Below, piece after piece: positions 1,825-44,774 of a stretch of DNA of 64,000 bases. Source of the stretch: Actinomycetota bacterium (GTDB lineage: Bacteria; Actinomycetota; Humimicrobiia; Humimicrobiales; Humimicrobiaceae); the NCBI GenBank assembly GCA_034660395.1, contig JAYEJA010000040.1, forward strand, positions 4,434 through 68,433, in the 5' to 3' direction. Below the pieces are notes generated by a model. That model saw only the letters and a program-made list of their open reading frames with translations, was not told the origin of the DNA and searched no databases. The first letter of the stretch is position 1; the number at the start of each line of letters is the position of its first letter. The position numbers were made by a program, and so were the translations under genes.

Positions 1825-2640
1825 ATGAATAAAGATAATAACAGTATTATTGAAAAGGTATTTAAGGATTTAAGAAAAAATAATAAGAAAGCTTTTATTC
1901 CATTTATAACCTGCGGCTTTCCAAGCATGGAGGGTTTTCTTGAGCTATTTAGGGTTCTTGATGGAAGTGGAGCAGATATAATAGAAGTGGGTATCCCTTT
2001 TTCCGACCCGCTGGCAGACGGGCCGGTTATCCAGGAAACTTCCAGGATTGCCCTGGAAAATGGAATAAATACCGATATTGTTTTTAAATATCTTTTAAGA
2101 GCAAGGCATATCAGCAAAAAGCCCATAGCGATTATGACCTATTTTAATACCATTTACCGTTATGGTGTTGAAAGATTCTTAAAAAAATCCAGGGAGGCAG
2201 GAGTAAATGGGATCATAGTGCCTGACCTTCCGCTGGAAGAATTTAAGAAATATTTTAAGCATTTTAAAGAAGCAAATATAGATAACATAATGTTTGCTTC
2301 CCTGACTTCCAGCAGGGAAAGACTCATGACTGTAGCCAGAAAAAGCAAAGGTTTTATTTATTGTATTTCAGTAAAAGGGGTGACCGGTGTCAGGAATAAT
2401 GTAAATCCTGAAATTATAGATTTTTTAAAGGGTATGAGGGGAATAACGAAGCTGCCTCTGGCGCTGGGTTTCGGATTGTCAAACAGGGAGCAGGTAAGCC
2501 AGATAAAAGATTACTGCGATGGGATTATCATGGGAAGTAAAATCCTATCCCTGGTCCTTGAGGAAGATGACTTTAAAGATGGTATAAAAGCAGTGGAATC
2601 TTTTGCCTCAAAAATTAATAAGATACTGAAAACATCATAG
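1825..2640 (+). CDS. trpA: Tryptophan synthase alpha subunit
   Basis: 271 aa. N-terminal FIPFITCGFPS motif. Immediately downstream of trpB. Confidence 0.9.
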   Translation: MNKDNNSIIEKVFKDLRKNNKKAFIPFITCGFPSMEGFLELFRVLDGSGADIIEVGIPFSDPLADGPVIQETSRIALENGINTDIVFKYLLRARHISKKPIAIMTYFNTIYRYGVERFLKKSREAGVNGIIVPDLPLEEFKKYFKHFKEANIDNIMFASLTSSRERLMTVARKSKGFIYCISVKGVTGVRNNVNPEIIDFLKGMRGITKLPLALGFGLSNREQVSQIKDYCDGIIMGSKILSLVLEEDDFKDGIKAVESFASKINKILKTS

Positions 2641-24465: not shown

Positions 24466-24815
24466 GGGGGCGACCTGGGTTCGACGGGGATAGGTTGAGC
24501 TTAAGTTGCAAGCCGAGTATCAGAACTCGTAAATAACTGAACCATAAATAAACGCTAATAATAAATTAGCATTAGCAGCCTAATTTAAGCTGCTACGTCT
24601 GTGAAGGGTTTCCTGCGCTTTTCAACAGGCGCCGATTAGCAGGATACTCCGGCATGATTTGTCTGCAGTAGTGCCGGGGGAAGTTTTATGCGGACTGGCT
24701 TTTTTAACCGTGTCCATACGGGTGAAAAAGTGAGAATTTAAAATGTGGACTAAGCTTGTAGATATTTAAGTGGCGATGTCTTCGGACGCGGGTTCGATTC
24801 CCGCCGCCTCCACCA
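24466..24815 (+). ncRNA. ssrA: tmRNA (transfer-messenger RNA)
   Basis: 5' GGGGGCGACCTGGGTTCGACGGGG. 3' GGACGCGGGTTCGATTCCCGCCGCCTCCACCA (tRNA-Ala-like T-arm and acceptor with encoded CCA). Internal tag ORF GCT AAT AAT AAA TTA GCA TTA GCA GCC TAA, giving (A)NNKLALAA. Confidence 0.9.
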
Positions 24816-26936: not shown

Positions 26937-27194
26937 ATGATTACGGTAAAAAAGGAAAACGATAATAAATTTCTGGTAACCGTAGAAGAAGGGGGCAGCA
27001 GTACGGAGCATGCCGTTAATCTGGATGATGAATATTACAGGGACCTGACGGGCGGTGAAATTGCGAGGGAGGAACTGATAAGGAAATCTTTTAAATTCCT
27101 ACTTGAAAGAGAACCCAAAGAATCCATACTCCCACAATTTAATTTAGGGATTTATATACTTATAAACACTAAATTAATTTATAATAAGTGTTAA
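26937..27194 (+). pseudogene. Small hypothetical gene whose 3' end is interrupted by the IS1595-family element. The native C-terminus resumes after 29939.
   Basis: The ORF reads through the IS left IR. Rejoining the flanks across the 8-bp TSD restores ...PQFNLNIIKSYFPEYEREIKI*, ending at 29990. Confidence 0.5.
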
Positions 27195-27201
27195 TAAGTA
27201 C

Positions 27202-27230
27202 TTGACAACACTATTATTTAGTGTTATTAT
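27202..27230 (+). promoter_or_regulatory. Sigma-70-type promoter of the transposase (TTGACA-17-TATTAT). A palindrome ACACTAttattTAGTGT fills the spacer. The -10 lies 6 nt from the ATG (leaderless).
   Basis: Read directly. The ACACTA/TAGTGT motif also forms the inner ends of both IRs and occurs at 27188..27193. Confidence 0.6.
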
Positions 27231-27236
27231 ATACTC

Positions 27237-28160
27237 ATGATGAACGATAAAAATAAAACAAAAGAAATGAGTATAATAGATTTTCTAACAAAAAGATTTC
27301 CGGATGAGGAAACAGCAGTAGATTTTTTTGCTAAAAAGCGTTGGGGTAACAAAATTACCTGTCCTTATTGTGGAAGTAGTAAAGTATATCACGTAAAAGG
27401 AAATCAACCATATAAATGTGGAAATTGCAACTTTAAATTTACAGTAAAGACAGGTACAATAATGGAAGGTAGCCACATAAAAGTAAGGACTTGGTTATTA
27501 GCAATGTACATTATGGGAACAACACGGAAAGGTATATCTTCTATTCAGCTTGCAAAACAACTTGGAGTAACCCAAAAGACAGCTTGGTATATGGCACATA
27601 GAATAAGAGAAGCTTGTAATAATTATGAGAAGATGAAAGGTATTATAGAAGTAGATGAGGCATATTTCGGTGGAAAAGAAAAAAACAAACATCATAGCAA
27701 AAAATATAACAAAGGACGCGGGGTTGCTAATAAAACAGCGGTTGCTGGATTAAAAGAGAGAAATGGAAAGTTTATGGCAAGGGTTTTAAAAGATACAAGT
27801 TCTTATACGTTGCAGGGTTTAATCCAAAAGAATGTAGTACCAAATTCAGCAGTATTTACTGATGATTTTCTATCATATATTGGATTGGAAAATAAAGGAT
27901 TTAAACATCAATCGGTAAAACATAGTGCTAATGAATATGTGGATGGCATAGCTCATACAAATGAGATTGAAAGCTTTTGGGCTCTGTTAAAGCGTGGTGT
28001 ATATGGAACATATCATTTTGTTAGTGTAAAACACTTACAACGCTATGTAAATGAATTCTGTTTTAGGGCAAACAATGGCAATACGGCATTATCTTTTGTG
28101 GATGCTATTTGCTTAAAAGCAAATATGAAAAATATAAAATATAAGGAATTGATAGCTTAA
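27237..28160 (+). CDS. IS1595-family (ISXO2-like DDE) transposase
   Basis: N-terminal zinc finger CPYCGSSK..CGNCNF. Family-typical blocks EVDEAYFGGK, VFTDDFLSY, HTNEIESFWALLKR. Confidence 0.9.
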   Translation: MMNDKNKTKEMSIIDFLTKRFPDEETAVDFFAKKRWGNKITCPYCGSSKVYHVKGNQPYKCGNCNFKFTVKTGTIMEGSHIKVRTWLLAMYIMGTTRKGISSIQLAKQLGVTQKTAWYMAHRIREACNNYEKMKGIIEVDEAYFGGKEKNKHHSKKYNKGRGVANKTAVAGLKERNGKFMARVLKDTSSYTLQGLIQKNVVPNSAVFTDDFLSYIGLENKGFKHQSVKHSANEYVDGIAHTNEIESFWALLKRGVYGTYHFVSVKHLQRYVNEFCFRANNGNTALSFVDAICLKANMKNIKYKELIA

Positions 28161-28954
28161 TGGTAAAGAAACAAATAATAAAACCCATAGAAAAAGATTT
28201 TGATGAAATAGTGGAAAGTGTTGGTAAACATAATCCTAAAAACAGGAATAATGTTTTCTCAAATATAAGAAATATTACACAACCAACATTAGAACTTGCG
28301 GATGGGTTAAAACTAAATGAAAAACAGAAAATGGACGGATTACAGCTTTTAAAAATGCTTGATAATAAAAGTATACCGCTTGTATTTTTTGACCCGCAAT
28401 ACCGAACAATTCTTGATAAACAAAATTATGGTAACGAGGGCGAGGGTAGACAAAAAGCGAGAGTTAAATTACCACAAATGAAAGAAAAAACAATTAAGCA
28501 ATTTATAAGAGAAATTGAGAGAATACTTATACCAAGTGGTCATTTAATGCTTTGGGTTGATAAATTTATAATTTGCAGTGGTATACATATTTTGCTTGAA
28601 GGGTCGTCACTTCAGCTTGTAGATATGGTAACTTGGAACAAAAACAAAATGGGTATGGGTTATAGGACAAGACGCTACAGTGAACATCTTATTATACTCC
28701 AGAAATTACCAGTAAGAGCAAAAGGGGTATGGCGTATTCACGATATACCAGATGTATGGACTGAAAAAATAAACAATGGAGATAAAAAGAATTATGTTCA
28801 TCCCAAACCAGTGGGGTTACAAAAACGATTAATAGAAGCTGTTACAAATAAAAATGATGTAATTGTTGACCCTGCTGCTGGTGGTTATTCGATATTGAGG
28901 GCTGCTAATGAAGTTGGGCGTAACTTTTTGGGGTGTGATATTATAGATATTTAA
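28160..28954 (+). CDS. Beta-class N6-adenine/N4-cytosine DNA methyltransferase (pfam N6_N4_Mtase-like), translationally coupled to the transposase
   Basis: Motif IV-like FFDPQY precedes motif I VIVDPAAGGYS. Conserved WNKNKMGMGYRTRRYSEHLIILQK block. The start ATG overlaps the transposase stop (TAATG). Confidence 0.75.
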   Translation: MVKKQIIKPIEKDFDEIVESVGKHNPKNRNNVFSNIRNITQPTLELADGLKLNEKQKMDGLQLLKMLDNKSIPLVFFDPQYRTILDKQNYGNEGEGRQKARVKLPQMKEKTIKQFIREIERILIPSGHLMLWVDKFIICSGIHILLEGSSLQLVDMVTWNKNKMGMGYRTRRYSEHLIILQKLPVRAKGVWRIHDIPDVWTEKINNGDKKNYVHPKPVGLQKRLIEAVTNKNDVIVDPAAGGYSILRAANEVGRNFLGCDIIDI

Positions 28955-29027
28955 AAGCTTGACATACACACTTTAATAATAGTAGAATTAAATTCAGAAA
29001 GTTATAGGGAGACAACCTATGAATCTG

Positions 29028-29061
29028 GGGCAATACTTAATTGGATTGCCCTTTTTCTTTT
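29028..29061 (+). terminator. Rho-independent terminator after the transposase-MTase transcript
   Basis: GGGCAAT-acttaattgg-ATTGCCC stem-loop followed by TTTTTCTTTT. Confidence 0.65.
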
Positions 29062-29150
29062 GGTGCGGATGGTGGGACTCGAACCCACACGAACCTATCG
29101 GCTCAACAGGGAGACAACCTATCGCGTCTACCAATTCCGCCACACCCGCA
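29061..29150 (-). tRNA. tRNA-like sequence (class II, Leu-type D-arm and long variable arm) with an aberrant anticodon loop. Probably a pseudo-tRNA or a captured tRNA fragment.
   Basis: Reverse complement is GCGGGTGTGGCGGAATTGGTAGACGCG-ATAGG-TTGTCTC-CCTGT-TGAGCCGATAGGTTCGT-GTGGGTTCGAGTCCCAC-CATCCGCACCA. Acceptor, D-, T- and variable arms are intact. The anticodon loop TTGTCTC has a pyrimidine at position 37 and an apparent anticodon GTC, which is inconsistent with a class II tRNA. Confidence 0.45.
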
Positions 29151-29216
29151 TAAATAGTAAATTTAATTCTATCATACTAAATTGTTATAATAAATAAATT
29201 ACAGTATAATAAGTAT

Positions 29217-29909
29217 ATGGCACTAATAGAAAAAGCCCAGGGACGTAAAGTAGACCAATCACCAAGTGGGTATACTCGCTTGTTTGGTATTTCCACGCTG
29301 GGAAATTTAATAAGTAAAGTACACGCAGCATGTATATCTGCGGGAACTGAACTTGAAAGATTTATTTGGGAAAGAGTAAACCAGATAAGCGACCTTGATA
29401 AATTTATAACAGAAACATTGCATAAAAAAGAAGACAGTGGAAAAATATGGGTTGCTATCAAAAGACAGATTAAACAATCAAAAACAATTAATTCAAAATA
29501 TGAACCAGATTTTATCGCTTTTGATTTAAAATTAAGAATGTGCTACGTCATTGAAGTAAAAGACGGAGACCAATTTGATACAAAAAAAGCAAGCGGTGAA
29601 CATAACACACTCCATAATTTTACAAATGATATTTCACACGACTTACCTTTTTCAACAAGAATTTTCATGTGTTGTTTTCATGCAAGAAATATAGAGGAAA
29701 TGTATATTGGTTTGAAAGGTAAATTTTCTAAAGATGAATTAATGACAGGGAAGGATTTATGCTTACTTCTTGGTATAGATTATGATGAAATTATTAAAAT
29801 ACGTACAAGTGACCAGCAGAGAAACCTTGATTACTTTATAAATAGTTTGTTATATATAGATACTATCAAAAATATGATTAAGAAAAGATTAGGCATATTT
29901 AAGATTTAG
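29217..29909 (+). CDS. PD-(D/E)xK nuclease-fold protein, a candidate type II restriction endonuclease partner of the MTase. Its stop codon lies inside the IRR.
   Basis: ..KYEPDFIAFDLKLRMCYVIEVKDGD.. has a PD...(E)VK spacing typical of PD-(D/E)xK nucleases. Leaderless promoter TTGTTA-17-TATAAT-6-ATG at 29182..29216. Confidence 0.5.
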   Translation: MALIEKAQGRKVDQSPSGYTRLFGISTLGNLISKVHAACISAGTELERFIWERVNQISDLDKFITETLHKKEDSGKIWVAIKRQIKQSKTINSKYEPDFIAFDLKLRMCYVIEVKDGDQFDTKKASGEHNTLHNFTNDISHDLPFSTRIFMCCFHARNIEEMYIGLKGKFSKDELMTGKDLCLLLGIDYDEIIKIRTSDQQRNLDYFINSLLYIDTIKNMIKKRLGIFKI

Positions 29910-30043
29910 TGTTTATAAGTATATAAATCCCTTAATTTAAATATAATTAAAAGTTATTTTCCCGAATATGAAAGGGAAATAAAAATATAATAAAAAGATA
30001 AAAAGGTATTTATATTTACACCTGTGGGAAAAGGAGGGAATAA

Positions 30044-43739: not shown

Positions 43740-44774
43740 ATGCAGATGTTTGATTTTTTTCTGAATGTAATAGGCAAGGATATGGGTATAGACCTGGGGA
43801 CGGCAAATACCCTGGTATATGTTAAAGGTAAGGGGATAATCCTTGAAGAACCCTCTGTTGTGGCAATTGACAGGGAGAGAAAAAGAATACTGGCAGTTGG
43901 CCAGGAAGCCAAGAAGATGGTGGGGAGGACTCCCGATAATATAATAGCAACGAGACCTCTGAAAAATGGAGTAATTGCAGACTTTGAGACAACGGAAAAA
44001 ATGCTCAGGTATTTTATACAGAGGGTCCATAAAAATGTAGCTTTTGCAAGACCCCGGATAGTTATTTGCGTACCGTCCGGAATTACTCCGGTGGAAAAGA
44101 AAGCGGTAGTTGAAGCTACGGAACAGGCAGGTGCGAGGGCGGCTTATATAATTGAAGAGCCCCTGGCAGCGGCAATTGGTTCCGGTCTTTCTATTGATGA
44201 GCCCAGGGGAAGCATGATTATAGATATAGGAGGAGGGACCTCGGAGGTTGCTGTTATTTCACTTGGAGGGATTGTCGTAAGCCAGTCATTGAGGATTGGC
44301 GGAGATGATATGGATGAAGCAATAACCTATTATTTGAAGAAGGAACACAATCTATACCTTGGCGAAAGAACTGCAGAAAAGGTGAAAATGGAAATAGGTT
44401 CCGCATTTCCCCTTGAGAATGAGGAAAAGATGGAAATAAATGGAAGGGACCTCATAACGGGACTTCCCAAAACCATTATTATCACCAGCCAGCAGATAAG
44501 GAGAGCTCTGGAGAAAGTACTGGGCGATATCGTAAATTCTATTGTTGAAGTACTTGATGTAACACCCCCCGAGCTTTCTTCAGACATAATGAAAAAAGGT
44601 ATTGTTATGGCAGGGGGAGGTTCATTGCTTAAAGGTCTTGCGGAAAGGATAAGCAGGGAGACGCATTGTCCGGTGTATCTTGCTGAAGACCCGATGGCTG
44701 CTGTGGCAATGGGCGCAGGTAAATGTGTTGAGGATTTCAATACATTGAAAAGATATTTGAGATATTCAAAATAA
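43740..44774 (+). CDS. mreB: Rod shape-determining protein MreB
   Basis: GIDLGTANTLVYV.., actin-fold motifs. Confidence 0.95.
   Translation: MQMFDFFLNVIGKDMGIDLGTANTLVYVKGKGIILEEPSVVAIDRERKRILAVGQEAKKMVGRTPDNIIATRPLKNGVIADFETTEKMLRYFIQRVHKNVAFARPRIVICVPSGITPVEKKAVVEATEQAGARAAYIIEEPLAAAIGSGLSIDEPRGSMIIDIGGGTSEVAVISLGGIVVSQSLRIGGDDMDEAITYYLKKEHNLYLGERTAEKVKMEIGSAFPLENEEKMEINGRDLITGLPKTIIITSQQIRRALEKVLGDIVNSIVEVLDVTPPELSSDIMKKGIVMAGGGSLLKGLAERISRETHCPVYLAEDPMAAVAMGAGKCVEDFNTLKRYLRYSK

What the first reader, a model, noticed from the sequence alone, without database searches (positions are those of the whole stretch)
29007..29150. tRNA-like element inside the transposon with an aberrant anticodon loop, plus a 15-nt internal repeat
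The minus strand at 29061..29150 folds as a class II tRNA: acceptor GCGGGTG/CATCCGC, a Leu-type D-arm GCGGAATTGGTAGACGC, a 17-nt variable arm with a GAGCC/GGTTC stem, T-arm GTGGG-TTCGAGT-CCCAC, and an encoded CCA. However, the anticodon loop is TTGTCTC, with a pyrimidine at position 37 and a nominal anticodon GTC. In addition, the 15-mer ATAGGTTGTCTCCCT spanning the anticodon arm is repeated 100 bp downstream (plus-strand AGGGAGACAACCTAT at 29007..29021 and 29108..29122), and CGATAGGTT also recurs inside the variable arm. The pattern suggests a tRNA-derived fragment (a captured att-like site, a tRNA-mimic regulatory RNA or a decoy) rather than a functional tRNA.
Basis: seen in the sequence. 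Interest (0 to 1): 0.55.

Follow-up and report, generated by a model that had tools for sequence, protein, structure and literature searches.

The report
tRNA-shaped RNA with matched antisense partner
A jumping gene that carries a DNA-cutting defence system also holds a re-purposed leucine tRNA whose anticodon loop no longer reads codons but exactly matches a small RNA encoded 100 bases away, and the two have changed together in related elements, which points to a so far undescribed two-RNA switch.

Summary
29061..29149 (-) is a class II, tRNA-Leu-derived cloverleaf with loop UUGUCUC (U37, nominal GUC). Its anticodon arm is repeated exactly at 29006..29020 (reader off by one).

The second copy is not a relic. 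It lies in a ~63-nt + strand RNA with an 11/12 promoter, a hairpin whose loop GAGACAA complements the anticodon loop, and a terminator.

In two related lineages both segments differ but still match: 15, 13 and 12 nt cognate against 5-9 nt non-cognate, with 0 of 5000 shuffles reaching each observed value. The cloverleaf is kept by compensatory changes.

The pair sits in a 262-nt cassette between the methylase and restriction genes of an intact IS1595 transposon (28-nt inverted repeats, 8-bp duplication). In about 65 relatives M and R abut. In two copies that lost R the pair has decayed.

It is not a decoding tRNA, an att remnant, a T-box or a peptide toxin locus. A suppressor role for the element's own genes was refuted.

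Best reading: a tRNA-scaffolded antisense pair, laid out like par RNA I/RNA II, tied to control of the restriction gene. Its output is undetermined. An RNA-only toxin/antitoxin is the main rival.

The parts
27139..27146 (.). Left copy of the 8-bp target-site duplication, TTAATTTA
   Evidence: Read directly. The same 8 bp flank both ends of the element.
27147..29931 (+). Intact IS1595-family transposon, 2,785 bp, single copy in the window. It carries Tnp, M, the RNA cassette and R.
   Evidence: The terminal inverted repeat core GGGATTTATATACTTATAAACACTAAAT (28 nt) is perfect at 27147..27174 and 29904..29931, with 0 expected by chance. GC is 31.9% against 39.5% for the window.
27237..28160 (+). 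IS1595-family transposase, 307 aa
   Evidence: Pfam DDE_Tnp_IS1595 at 4.9e-41 and Zn_ribbon_IS1595 at 3e-11. NCBIfam transpos_IS1595 at 2.2e-63.
28160..28954 (+). Type II DNA methyltransferase (N6/N4 class), 264 aa. Its start overlaps the Tnp stop.
   Evidence: Pfam N6_N4_Mtase at 1.4e-18. PADLOC MTase_II PDLC03271 at 5e-78.
28959..28988 (+). Promoter of the partner small RNA: TTGACA, 18 nt, TAGAAT
   Evidence: Matches 11 of 12 consensus positions. The equivalent promoters in the relatives match 11/12 (L021) and 10/12 plus TG (L023). The region aligns across lineages.
28996..29060 (+). Partner small RNA, about 63 nt. The 5' end is inferred from the -10 box and the 3' end from the T tract.
   Evidence: Fold energy -22 kcal/mol, z = -3.57 against shuffles. 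No Rfam family reaches threshold; the best is sbrA at 22 bits against a gathering score of 45.
29002..29022 (+). Seed hairpin of the partner RNA: 7-bp stem and 7-nt loop GAGACAA (29009..29015). The loop is the exact complement of the tRNA-like anticodon loop. The 15-mer AGGGAGACAACCTAT is at 29006..29020.
29028..29060 (+). Terminator of the partner RNA: GC hairpin 29028..29051, then TTTTTCTTT ending one base before the tRNA-like 3' end
   Evidence: Fold. The scan tool did not list it, presumably because the loop and bulge exceed its rules. Equivalent hairpins plus T runs occur in L021 and L023.
29061..29149 (-). tRNA-Leu-derived, tRNA-shaped RNA: class II body, A73, encoded CCA. The anticodon arm is 29106..29122 and the loop UUGUCUC is 29111..29117.
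   Evidence: ARAGORN. Rfam 49.9 bits. Only annotated tRNA-Leu genes match it by BLAST. Across lineages 97.9% of cloverleaf cells pair and 15 of 24 pairs change on both sides.
29166..29174 (-). Candidate extended -10 promoter of the tRNA-like gene, TGaTAGAAT, about 9 nt of leader before G1
   Evidence: This is my reading; the scan tool did not call it. The same box, TGATAAAAT, is in L095. In L021 and L023 the tool finds TTTAAA-17-TATTAT and TATCAT (9/12) at the equivalent place.
29182..29210 (+). Promoter of the restriction gene: TTGTTA, 17 nt, TATAAT. The -10 box ends 6 nt before the ATG, so the mRNA would be leaderless. It lies back-to-back with, and overlaps, the tRNA-like promoter region.
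   Evidence: Matches 10 of 12. The TATAAT is conserved 6-8 nt before the ATG in all lineages.
29217..29909 (+). Type II restriction endonuclease, 230 aa
   Evidence: PADLOC REase_II PDLC03487 at 4.2e-50 over the full length. 289 homologs were found, some named restriction endonuclease by NCBI. No Pfam or PDB match.
29932..29939 (.). Right copy of the 8-bp target-site duplication, TTAATTTA

Best explanation
SHOWN.
- The minus-strand gene is a tRNA-Leu descendant that keeps the whole tRNA body: acceptor, D, variable and T arms, A73 and CCA.
- Its anticodon arm has been rewritten.
- A small RNA gene lies 100 bp away and is transcribed towards it. It has a near-consensus promoter, a 5' seed and an intrinsic terminator.
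- The seed is perfectly complementary to the whole 7-nt anticodon loop plus adjacent stem bases.
- Seed and anticodon arm differ between three related lineages but always match each other. Selection therefore acts on RNA-RNA pairing, not on a codon.
- The pair belongs to a 262-nt cassette inserted exactly between the methylase and restriction genes of an IS1595-borne type II R-M operon, in which these genes otherwise overlap.
- The cassette supplies a terminator after M and a new -10 box directly before the R start codon. That box overlaps the tRNA-like promoter region.

INFERRED.
- The tRNA shape serves as a stable, correctly processed scaffold that presents a pre-formed U-turn loop. The small RNA is the short-lived partner.
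- They meet by loop-loop (kissing) contact, which can extend to a 12-15-bp duplex.
- The layout (convergent promoters, a terminator between them, a DNA direct repeat read in opposite directions) is that of par(pAD1) RNA I/RNA II.

MOST LIKELY ROLE (inferred, not shown).
The cassette is the control circuit that replaced translational coupling of R to M. The seed lies 1-13 nt upstream of the terminator in all three lineages, where a countertranscript can influence termination. The slowly accumulating tRNA-shaped RNA would dock on the nascent partner RNA. That would change how much transcription from the strong upstream promoters stops there or runs on across the overlapping tRNA-like and R promoters. 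R expression would then lag behind M after the transposon enters a new cell. The direction of the effect and the output itself remain undetermined.
For: Pairing:
- Exact shared words of 15, 13 and 12 nt in the window, L021/L022 and L023/L024, at homologous positions.
- Non-cognate combinations share only 5-9 nt. None of 5000 shuffles reaches the observed value in any intact lineage.
- The paired stretch covers tRNA-like nt 28-42, 32-44 and 30-41, so always the whole loop, nt 33-39.
- Ordinary tRNAs have at most 7-nt repeats of their arm nearby.
- No third copy or complement exists in the element or the window.

Expression signals:
- Partner-RNA promoter at 11/12, 11/12 and 10/12 plus TG.
- Hairpin plus T tract in all three, with fold z-scores of -3.6, -2.8 and -3.2.

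Structure under selection:
- 97.9% of cloverleaf cells pair, against 40-55% when the partners are slid. 15 of 24 pairs change on both sides.

Link to R-M:
- M and R abut or overlap (-22 to +12 nt, mostly -4 to +12) in 65 of the 68 relatives outside this clade where both genes are on the contig. The cassette is found only in the clade with R at least 81% identical.
- The R promoter's -10 box lies 6-8 nt before the ATG in every lineage.
- In L095 R is destroyed, the tRNA-like has acceptor and T stem mismatches, and complementarity is at chance level.
- In L097 R and the 5' half of the tRNA-like are deleted.
- An independent insertion at the same junction (L033) again has an aberrant minus-strand tRNA gene. 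It faces a 12/12 promoter that would make its antisense RNA.

Layout precedent: par(pAD1), as described in PMC7472228.
Against: - There are only three intact lineages, all from metagenomes, and no expression data.
- No alternative (antiterminator) structure is evident in the partner RNA folds, so an effect on termination has no structural support.
- Neither RNA has significant complementarity to the 5' ends of the R, M or Tnp mRNAs (all p > 0.1). No direct route from the pairing to R expression is demonstrated.
- R has its own promoter, so it may not depend on read-through at all.
- The co-decay of the pair with R rests on two cases and could reflect general decay of dead elements.
- The retained A73, CCA, U33 and exact 7-nt loop are not needed for a mere scaffold. 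They fit the rival in which the RNA still engages the translation machinery.
- L096 has a partner RNA whose seed matches the variable arm, not the anticodon arm, of the related L095 tRNA-like. The docking site may therefore not be fixed.
Confidence: 0.5

Rival explanations
1. RNA-only toxin/antitoxin (or abortive-infection) module. The tRNA-shaped RNA is still charged by LeuRS, which in bacteria reads A73 and the tRNA body rather than the anticodon (established knowledge, from memory). It is delivered to the ribosome, where its non-Leu anticodon (Asp GUC, Ala CGC, Ala GGC) causes missense or frameshift errors, or it jams the machinery. The short-lived partner RNA masks the anticodon loop. When the element is lost or transcription is shut off, the stable tRNA-shaped RNA outlives its antidote.
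For: - The pair is self-contained, with no third target in the element or the window.
- The part that is masked is always the entire anticodon loop.
- After complete rewriting of the arm, a 5-bp stem, a 7-nt loop and U32-U33 are kept in all three lineages. A73, CCA, G18G19 and the T loop are invariant while unconstrained positions have diverged.
- The putative antidote has the stronger promoter: 11/12 against 9/12 or an extended -10 box only.
- The layout is that of a type I toxin-antitoxin locus (PMC7472228).
- The carrier is a mobile element with addiction and defence cargo, found in phage-like contexts.
Against: - Position 37 is U in two of three lineages, and L021 has a C-A mismatch closing the loop. 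Both are poor for decoding.
- The nominal anticodon is not conserved.
- The element's own genes hold 43 Asp codons in the window that would be misread.
- The module decays where R is lost, which an autonomous addiction module should resist.
- L096 suggests docking on the variable arm in one sub-lineage.
- No charging or toxicity data exist.
Confidence: 0.25
2. A working tRNA, as ARAGORN labels it (tRNA-Asp GUC), carried as cargo to supplement decoding, as many phages do. The repeat would be incidental.
For: ARAGORN and Rfam both call it a tRNA. It has a full cloverleaf, CCA, U33 and a 7-nt loop.
Against: - The body is class II tRNA-Leu, not Asp.
- Position 37 is U.
- The 'anticodon' changes to CGC and GGC in orthologous copies.
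- A Leu-inserting suppressor needed by the element's own genes is excluded. None of the 43, 2 and 19 matching codons lies at a Leu-conserved column of R, M or Tnp.
- The repeat covaries with the arm.
Confidence: 0.03
3. [quoted passage not shown]
For: - tRNA genes are common integration targets, and such events leave direct repeats (PMC2853133).
- The repeats are exact, as DNA-level duplication would give.
- The cassette decays in some copies.
Against: - The repeat covers only the anticodon arm, no tRNA 3' half follows the second copy, and there is no integrase.
- The flanks (promoter, terminator position, tRNA body, R promoter) are homologous across lineages, so there was one ancestral insertion. 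Yet both repeat copies changed in concert three times.
- 12-15 nt is too short for ordinary recombinational gene conversion (established knowledge, from memory).
- The cloverleaf is maintained by compensatory changes.
- The second copy sits between a conserved near-consensus promoter and a terminator.
Confidence: 0.07
4. A T-box-like riboswitch in trans. The + strand RNA would be a leader whose hairpin loop reads the 'anticodon' of the dedicated tRNA-like RNA, and whose terminator is overridden when the uncharged 3' end also binds, switching on R.
For: A 7-nt loop complementary to an anticodon loop is followed within a few bases by a terminator, with a gene downstream in the same direction. 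UGGU, complementary to ACCA, follows the T tract.
Against: - No Rfam T-box hit even at E <= 10.
- There is no conserved T-box sequence and no antiterminator alternative in the folds.
- The UGGU is simply the complement of the tRNA gene's own 3' end.
- In L021 and L023 the seed is not in a hairpin loop.
- R has its own promoter and no Shine-Dalgarno sequence for translation from a long leader.
Confidence: 0.08

Closest known systems
par(pAD1) RNA I / RNA II and the Fst/Ldr type I toxin-antitoxin loci (PMC7472228)
   Same: Two RNAs from convergent promoters, an intrinsic terminator between them, and a DNA direct repeat transcribed in opposite directions that supplies the complementarity. Contact is started at a loop with a U-turn. 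One partner is short (40-70 nt). They occur on mobile elements.
   Different: In par the long RNA is an mRNA for a hydrophobic peptide toxin, and pairing hides its ribosome-binding site. Here the long partner is a tRNA-shaped non-coding RNA and there is no conserved small ORF. The window's 44-codon ORF from 29020 has no counterpart in L021 or L023. In the window a T tract follows the terminator hairpin on the + strand only.
tRNA-Other of Bacillus cereus, a pseudo-tRNA recruited into a regulatory RNA (PMC3399842)
   Same: A tRNA-derived gene on or next to a mobile island that no longer works in translation and is thought to act as a structural element of a regulatory RNA.
   Different: tRNA-Other has no dedicated partner RNA and no covarying anticodon arm, and it is not in an R-M system. 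Its proposed targets are mRNAs complementary to its flanks.
Antisense-RNA and C-protein control of type II restriction-modification systems, for example the EcoRI antisense RNAs and C-box/C-protein circuits (from memory, not retrieved here)
   Same: These are regulatory devices placed at or in the R gene of mobile R-M systems, whose job is to keep R behind M on entry into a new cell.
   Different: Those antisense RNAs overlap the R gene itself and pair with its mRNA. Here neither RNA pairs with the R, M or Tnp mRNA. There is no C protein in the element. No tRNA-shaped RNA has been reported in such circuits: literature searches found none.
Countertranscript-driven attenuation and convergent-promoter switches (pT181/pIP501 replication control, prgQ/Anti-Q of pCF10; from memory)
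   Same: A stable small countertranscript docks by loop contact on a nascent RNA just upstream of a terminator and sets the fraction that reads through. Convergent promoters add transcriptional interference.
   Different: Those systems have a demonstrable alternative fold (pre-emptor or antiterminator) in the leader. None was found here. Their countertranscripts are plain hairpins, not tRNA-shaped.
Engineered tRNA scaffolds for expressing recombinant RNAs (anticodon arm replaced by a payload; from memory)
   Same: The tRNA body is kept for folding, processing and stability while the anticodon arm is replaced by a functional RNA segment.
   Different: That is a laboratory design. This would be a natural counterpart.
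Transposon-like mobile forms of R-M systems (PMC2853133) and IS1595-family elements with passenger genes (Siguier et al. 2009, cited there)
   Same: R-M genes sit inside terminal inverted repeats with an 8-bp target duplication.
   Different: The carrier is of a known kind. The RNA cassette between M and R is not described there.

Membership tests
Canonical decoding tRNA (Rfam RF00005) | Cloverleaf scoring above the family threshold | tested here: met
   49.9 bits against a gathering score of 29. ARAGORN calls it. 97.9% of cells pair across lineages.
Canonical decoding tRNA (Rfam RF00005) | Anticodon loop of 7 nt with U33 and a purine at position 37 | tested here: not met
   The loops are UUGUCUC (U37), UUCGCAC (A37, but a C-A closing mismatch) and UUGGCUG (U37).
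Canonical decoding tRNA (Rfam RF00005) | Anticodon agrees with the identity of the body and is conserved among orthologous copies | tested here: not met
   The body is tRNA-Leu. The nominal anticodons are GUC, CGC and GGC, and GGA in decayed L095.
Canonical decoding tRNA (Rfam RF00005) | Aminoacylation and use on the ribosome | not testable with these tools
   A73 and CCA are conserved, but charging cannot be tested in silico.
par/Fst-type type I toxin-antitoxin locus | Convergent promoters for two RNAs | tested here: met
   The + strand promoter scores 11/12, 11/12 and 10/12. The minus-strand promoter scores 9/12 in L021 and L023. In the window and L095 it is an extended -10 box that I read from the sequence.
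par/Fst-type type I toxin-antitoxin locus | DNA direct repeats transcribed in opposite directions that give the RNA-RNA complementarity | tested here: met
   Repeats of 15, 13 and 12 nt.
par/Fst-type type I toxin-antitoxin locus | Shared bidirectional intrinsic terminator | tested here: inconclusive
   The hairpin lies between the two genes in all lineages. In the window a T tract follows it only on the + strand. In L021 T runs flank it on both strands (my reading).
par/Fst-type type I toxin-antitoxin locus | Small hydrophobic toxin ORF in the longer RNA, with its ribosome-binding site covered by the pairing | tested here: not met
   There is no conserved ORF. The window has an SD-ATG 44-codon ORF on the + strand (29020..29154) that runs through the terminator and is absent from L021 and L023. 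The minus-strand RNA holds only a 7-codon ORF.
T-box riboswitch | Conserved T-box sequence and antiterminator that competes with the terminator | tested here: not met
   No T-box match at E <= 10. No alternative fold.
T-box riboswitch | Leader element that base-pairs with a tRNA anticodon | tested here: met
   The 7-nt loop GAGACAA is complementary to the whole anticodon loop. This is a resemblance in mechanism only.
att site of a tRNA-targeting integrative element | Direct repeat that spans from the anticodon loop (or T loop) to the tRNA 3' end, with an integrase in the insert | tested here: not met
   The repeat is limited to the anticodon arm. Non-tRNA sequence follows the second copy. No integrase lies between or nearby. 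The criterion is taken from PMC2853133.
IS1595-family transposon | DDE_Tnp_IS1595 transposase with an N-terminal zinc ribbon | tested here: met
IS1595-family transposon | Terminal inverted repeats and an 8-bp target-site duplication | tested here: met
   Perfect 28-nt inverted repeats and TTAATTTA on both sides. That the IS1595 family makes 8-bp duplications is from memory.
Type II restriction-modification system | Adjacent methyltransferase and restriction endonuclease genes | tested here: met
   PADLOC MTase_II at 5e-78 and REase_II at 4.2e-50. The M-R pair is conserved in more than 60 loci. Enzyme activity and recognition site were not tested.
C-protein-controlled R-M system | Small helix-turn-helix controller gene with C-boxes upstream of R | tested here: not met
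   The only + strand ORFs of 50 aa or more inside the element are Tnp, M and R. No HTH family was found.

The most novel reading that the evidence does not exclude
The pair is an RNA-only toxin/antitoxin (or abortive-infection) system. The toxin would be a deliberately mis-wired tRNA: it has leucine identity but a non-leucine anticodon, so it corrupts translation. The antitoxin would be a dedicated 'anti-anticodon' small RNA that caps its anticodon loop. The anticodon and the cap would co-evolve to escape cross-neutralisation by related elements.
Probability: 0.22. Interest if true: 0.9.

Novelty: new variant of a known kind. Interest (0 to 1): 0.62.

Why it matters
Antisense RNA pairs and pseudo-tRNAs are each known. 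I found no description of a natural tRNA body used to present an antisense loop to a dedicated partner RNA, nor of any tRNA-shaped RNA inside a restriction-modification operon.

If the pair controls the restriction gene, it is a new, protein-free answer to an old problem: how a mobile R-M system keeps the nuclease behind the methylase on entering a cell. That answer would use the slow build-up of a very stable RNA as the clock.

If instead the RNA is still charged and decodes, it would be the first toxin that is a mis-wired tRNA with an RNA antidote.

Either way the three natural seed variants are ready-made orthogonal pairs. That makes the idea directly testable by swapping, and it is of interest for synthetic RNA regulators. 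It also shows that tRNA finders can mislabel such genes: they were called 'tRNA-Asp', 'tRNA-Ala' and 'tRNA-Ser' here.

Tried and rejected
1. **Missense-suppressor dependency.** I tested whether R, M or Tnp carries Asp (window), Ala-GCG (L021) or Ala-GCC/GCU (L023) codons at Leu-conserved columns. None of the 43, 2 and 19 such codons does. Rejected.
2. **A third target for the seed or the anticodon arm.** There is no further match of 8 nt or more in the elements apart from chance 8-mers. No match with up to 3 mismatches occurs in the window except one chance hit at 44341. Duplex predictions against the R, M and Tnp 5' ends are all non-significant. In the window a 16-nt, 88% complementarity joins the partner RNA tail (29051..29066) and the R 5' end (29220..29235) (I19). 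It is not conserved in L021 or L023.
3. **Peptide toxin in the partner RNA.** The ORF is not conserved.
4. **att or target-site-duplication origin.** Rejected; see the rival explanations.
5. **The variable-arm repeat CGATAGGTT.** It is specific to the window and at chance level.
6. **The 12-nt inverted repeat TAGAATTAAATT around the cassette (28983 and 29161).** Seen in the window only.
7. **More lineages.** All of these searches were run:
   - R, Tnp and M protein searches;
   - genome, metagenome and viral scans;
   - a promoter pattern scan;
   - cluster members;
   - BLAST of the spacer against phages and plasmids.
   
   They gave three intact lineages, two decayed copies (L095, L097), three truncated contigs (L092, L096, L099) and only tRNA-Leu genes otherwise.
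8. **RNAduplex matrix.** Cognate pairs score best, but the method ignores intramolecular structure and the shuffles overlap. I rely on the exact-match statistics instead.
9. **Antiterminator search by folding.** Nothing found.
10. **PDB sequence search for R.** No relative found.
Full report
**1. The observation**

ARAGORN finds a tRNA at 29061..29149 on the minus strand with anticodon GTC. Rfam's tRNA model scores it 49.9 bits against a threshold of 29, the weakest of the eight tRNAs in the window.

- acceptor stem GCGGGUG/CAUCCGC;
- a Leu-type D arm;
- a long variable arm;
- T arm GUGGG-UUCGAGU-CCCAC;
- discriminator A73 and an encoded CCA;
- an anticodon arm AUAGG-UUGUCUC-CCUGU with U at position 37.

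The body is that of tRNA-Leu. It aligns with the window's own tRNA-Leu(UAG). BLAST of the whole spacer against phage and plasmid records hits only the tRNA part, and only annotated tRNA-Leu genes, at 75-79% identity.

The 15-mer AGGGAGACAACCTAT occurs exactly twice in the window, at 29006..29020 and 29108..29122.

**2. What the second copy is**

The second copy is not downstream debris. On the + strand it lies between two signals:
- a promoter that matches the sigma-70 consensus at 11 of 12 positions (28959..28988);
- a GC-rich hairpin (29028..29051) followed by TTTTTCTTT, which ends one base before the 3' end of the tRNA-like gene.

The predicted ~63-nt RNA folds well (z = -3.6). Its first hairpin (29002..29022) has a 7-nt loop, GAGACAA, the exact complement of the anticodon loop UUGUCUC.

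There are therefore two genes transcribed towards each other, with a terminator between them. The DNA direct repeat makes their RNAs complementary.

**3. The setting**

The pair lies in an intact IS1595-family transposon, 27147..29931.
- It has perfect 28-nt terminal inverted repeats and an 8-bp target duplication, TTAATTTA.
- It carries a transposase, a type II methyltransferase and a type II restriction endonuclease.
- Its GC content is 31.9% against 39.5% for the window.

The RNA pair occupies the 262 nt between the M stop and the R start. The R gene has a TATAAT box that ends 6 nt before its ATG, so its mRNA would be leaderless. The same holds for the transposase. This R promoter region overlaps, back-to-back, the region upstream of the tRNA-like gene. 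There I read an extended -10 box, TGaTAGAAT (29174..29166).

**4. Relatives**

The R, Tnp and M proteins have hundreds to thousands of homologs, mostly in Patescibacteria and other uncultured lineages.

Outside the window's own clade, 68 fetched loci have both M and R on the contig. In 65 of them the two genes abut or overlap, with a gap of -22 to +12 nt and mostly -4 to +12. No tRNA is found beside R.

Only the clade closest to the window (R 81-84% identical: L021/L022 and L023/L024) has a 271-275-nt spacer. In each, ARAGORN again finds a minus-strand class II tRNA-like gene, labelled 'Ala cgc' and 'Ala ggc'.

The alignment shows conserved flanks: the partner-RNA promoter, the tRNA body and the R promoter. 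The anticodon arm is different in each lineage, and the + strand segment after the promoter changes in step.

| Lineage | Shared segment | Length |
|---|---|---|
| window | AGGGAGACAACCTAT | 15 nt |
| L021/L022 | AAAGTGTGCGAAG | 13 nt |
| L023/L024 | AGACAGCCAATC | 12 nt |

These are the longest repeats in each spacer.

- Cognate pairs share 15, 13 and 12 nt. Non-cognate combinations share 5-9 nt.
- None of 5000 shuffles per lineage reaches the observed value.
- The paired stretch always includes the whole 7-nt loop.
- Ten ordinary tRNA genes in the 442 kb held show at most 7-nt repeats of their arm.
- The window and L023 seeds share the core AGACA[A/G]CC, with the A/G difference present in both copies of each lineage. 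That is a plain compensatory change.
- The cloverleaf itself is kept by compensation: 97.9% of cells pair and 15 of 24 pairs change on both sides, against 40-55% pairing when the partners are slid.
- Promoters and terminators of the partner RNA are present in all lineages.

**5. Decayed copies**

Cluster members of the M protein gave further copies.

- **L095.** By the right half of its spacer, this is the window's closest relative. It has lost R (stop at codon 4, then unrelated sequence). Its tRNA-like gene has mismatches in the acceptor and T stems, and complementarity to the upstream RNA is at chance level, 5 nt.
- **L097.** This copy lies in a phage genome with portal and capsid genes. It has a truncated transposase and has lost R and the 5' half of the tRNA-like gene, but keeps the partner RNA.
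- **L092, L096 and L099.** These contigs break off inside the spacer.
- **L096.** Its partner RNA contains GCGTGAACAC, which matches the variable arm of the L095 tRNA-like. The docking site may have moved in that sub-lineage.

The intact pair is therefore seen only where R is intact: three lineages against two.

**6. A parallel**

L033 belongs to the same transposon family (R 63% identical) and has an unrelated 625-nt insertion at the same M|R junction.

It contains a minus-strand class I tRNA gene (Rfam 65 bits) with an A-G mismatch in the anticodon stem and the nominal anticodon ACU. A perfect 12/12 promoter on the + strand fires into its 3' end, and a terminator lies just beyond its 5' end. 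This would produce a complete antisense RNA to the tRNA.

An aberrant tRNA gene facing M, together with an 'anti-tRNA' transcript, has thus arisen twice at this junction.

**7. What it is not**

- **Not a normal tRNA.** It has a Leu body with non-Leu, non-conserved anticodons and U37.
- **Not a suppressor needed by the element.** No matching codon lies at a Leu-conserved column of R, M or Tnp.
- **Not an att remnant.** The repeat covers only the anticodon arm, no tRNA 3' half follows, there is no integrase, and both copies changed in concert. The criterion comes from PMC2853133.
- **Not a T-box.** There is no Rfam match and no antiterminator.
- **Not a par-type peptide toxin locus.** There is no conserved ORF.
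- **No third target.** Neither RNA pairs significantly with the 5' ends of the element's mRNAs, and no third copy of the seed exists.

**8. How it most likely works**

Shown: two convergent RNA genes, specific complementarity centred on the anticodon loop and maintained by selection, and a tRNA fold maintained by selection. Also shown is the position in a cassette that split a formerly coupled M-R operon and gave R its own promoter.

Inferred:
- The tRNA body is a stable, correctly processed scaffold. Its anticodon loop, a natural U-turn, makes fast loop-loop contact with the short-lived partner RNA.
- The layout is that of par(pAD1) RNA I/RNA II: convergent promoters, a terminator between them, and direct repeats read in opposite directions (PMC7472228).

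I favour a role in controlling the restriction gene, for three reasons:
- The cassette sits exactly at the M|R junction.
- The R promoter overlaps the tRNA-like promoter.
- The pair decays where R is lost.

The seed lies 1-13 nt before the terminator in all three lineages, where a countertranscript can affect termination. A slowly accumulating stable RNA would give the delay between M and R that mobile R-M systems need.

This step is not demonstrated. I found no alternative fold and no direct pairing to the R mRNA.

The main rival is that the RNA is still charged by LeuRS and acts on the ribosome as a mis-wired tRNA, with the partner RNA as its antidote. That reading explains why A73, CCA, U33 and the 7-nt loop are kept. 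It is weakened by U37, by the C-A mismatch in L021 and by the decay of the pair with R.

My estimates:

| Claim | Probability |
|---|---|
| The pairing is functional | about 0.85 |
| R-linked control | about 0.5 |
| RNA toxin/antitoxin | about 0.25 |

**9. Novelty**

Literature searches found pseudo-tRNAs used as regulatory elements (PMC3399842) and transposon-borne R-M systems (PMC2853133). They found no tRNA-shaped RNA with a dedicated covarying antisense partner, and none in an R-M operon.

I classify it as a new variant of a known kind, namely antisense RNA pairs. It would move to a new category if the toxin reading proves right.

The evidence base is three metagenomic lineages without expression data, which limits the score.

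Noticed in passing
L033:1940-2250 (Ga0114923_10012138): An independent 625-nt insertion at the same M|R junction of a related transposon. It holds a minus-strand class I tRNA gene (2011..2082, Rfam 65 bits) with an A-G mismatch in the anticodon stem and the nominal anticodon ACU. A perfect 12/12 + strand promoter (1972..2000) faces it and a terminator (2087..2122) follows, which would give a full antisense RNA. A long hairpin of about 115 nt lies at 2129..2244.
   Followed up: partly
L095:1196-1510, L097:4793-4960, L099:809-970: Decayed copies of the cassette. In L095 R stops at codon 4 and the tRNA-like stems carry mismatches. L097 lies in a phage genome; its tRNA-like 5' half and R are deleted, with an HNH endonuclease gene next to the break. 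L099 breaks inside the partner RNA terminator.
   Followed up: yes
L092, L095 and L096, spacer after M: Three contigs have M proteins at least 90% identical. They share the partner-RNA promoter, but their partner RNA bodies and terminators cannot be aligned. This part of the cassette turns over much faster than the genes, by recombination or replacement rather than by point mutation.
   Followed up: partly
window 27200..27240 and 29182..29219; the same places in L021 and L023: Both the transposase and the restriction gene have a -10 box 6-9 nt upstream of the ATG and no Shine-Dalgarno sequence. The element appears to use leaderless mRNAs.
   Followed up: partly
window 29020..29154 (+): A 44-codon ORF, MNLGQYLIGLPFFFWCGWW..., starts at the ATG that ends the 15-mer and is preceded by AGGGAG at Shine-Dalgarno distance. 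It runs through the terminator and the antisense of the tRNA-like gene. It is hydrophobic at its N terminus, like type I toxins, but has no counterpart in L021 or L023.
   Followed up: yes
window 29051..29066 and 29220..29235: A 16-nt, 88% complementarity joins the partner RNA's T-tract region and codons 2-7 of the R mRNA (repeat finder I19). It is seen in the window only.
   Followed up: partly
L021:5179-5257: A tmRNA-like fragment (39 bits, below the threshold of 47, E = 2e-12) lies about 500 nt downstream of the transposon in a phage-like context. It is possibly an att remnant of an island integrated in ssrA. In the window a complete tmRNA gene (24466..24815) lies 2.3 kb upstream of the transposon.
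   Followed up: no
L091:13300-13420 (IMGVR_UViG_3300021387_001020): This contig was found only through a chance promoter-pattern match. A tRNA-like gene, GGTGGGTAGCTCAATTGGTAGAGCAG...GCGAGTTCGAGTCTCGTCCCACC, is interrupted by about 55 nt at the anticodon region and is not called by ARAGORN. It may be an intron-containing phage tRNA.
   Followed up: no
window 26937..27194 (+): An 85-aa ORF without family matches runs from the flanking DNA across the target duplication into the left end of the transposon. It is either a host gene cut by the insertion or a chance ORF.
   Followed up: no
whole window: NCBI labels the source MAG 'Actinomycetota bacterium' (protein MEA2015544.1). The window has 39.5% GC, and the closest relatives of the transposon genes are in Patescibacteria/Saccharibacteria MAGs and their phages, so the taxonomic label may be doubtful. 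An independent Logan contig (L094, SRR26901925) is identical over 1,217 nt.
   Followed up: partly
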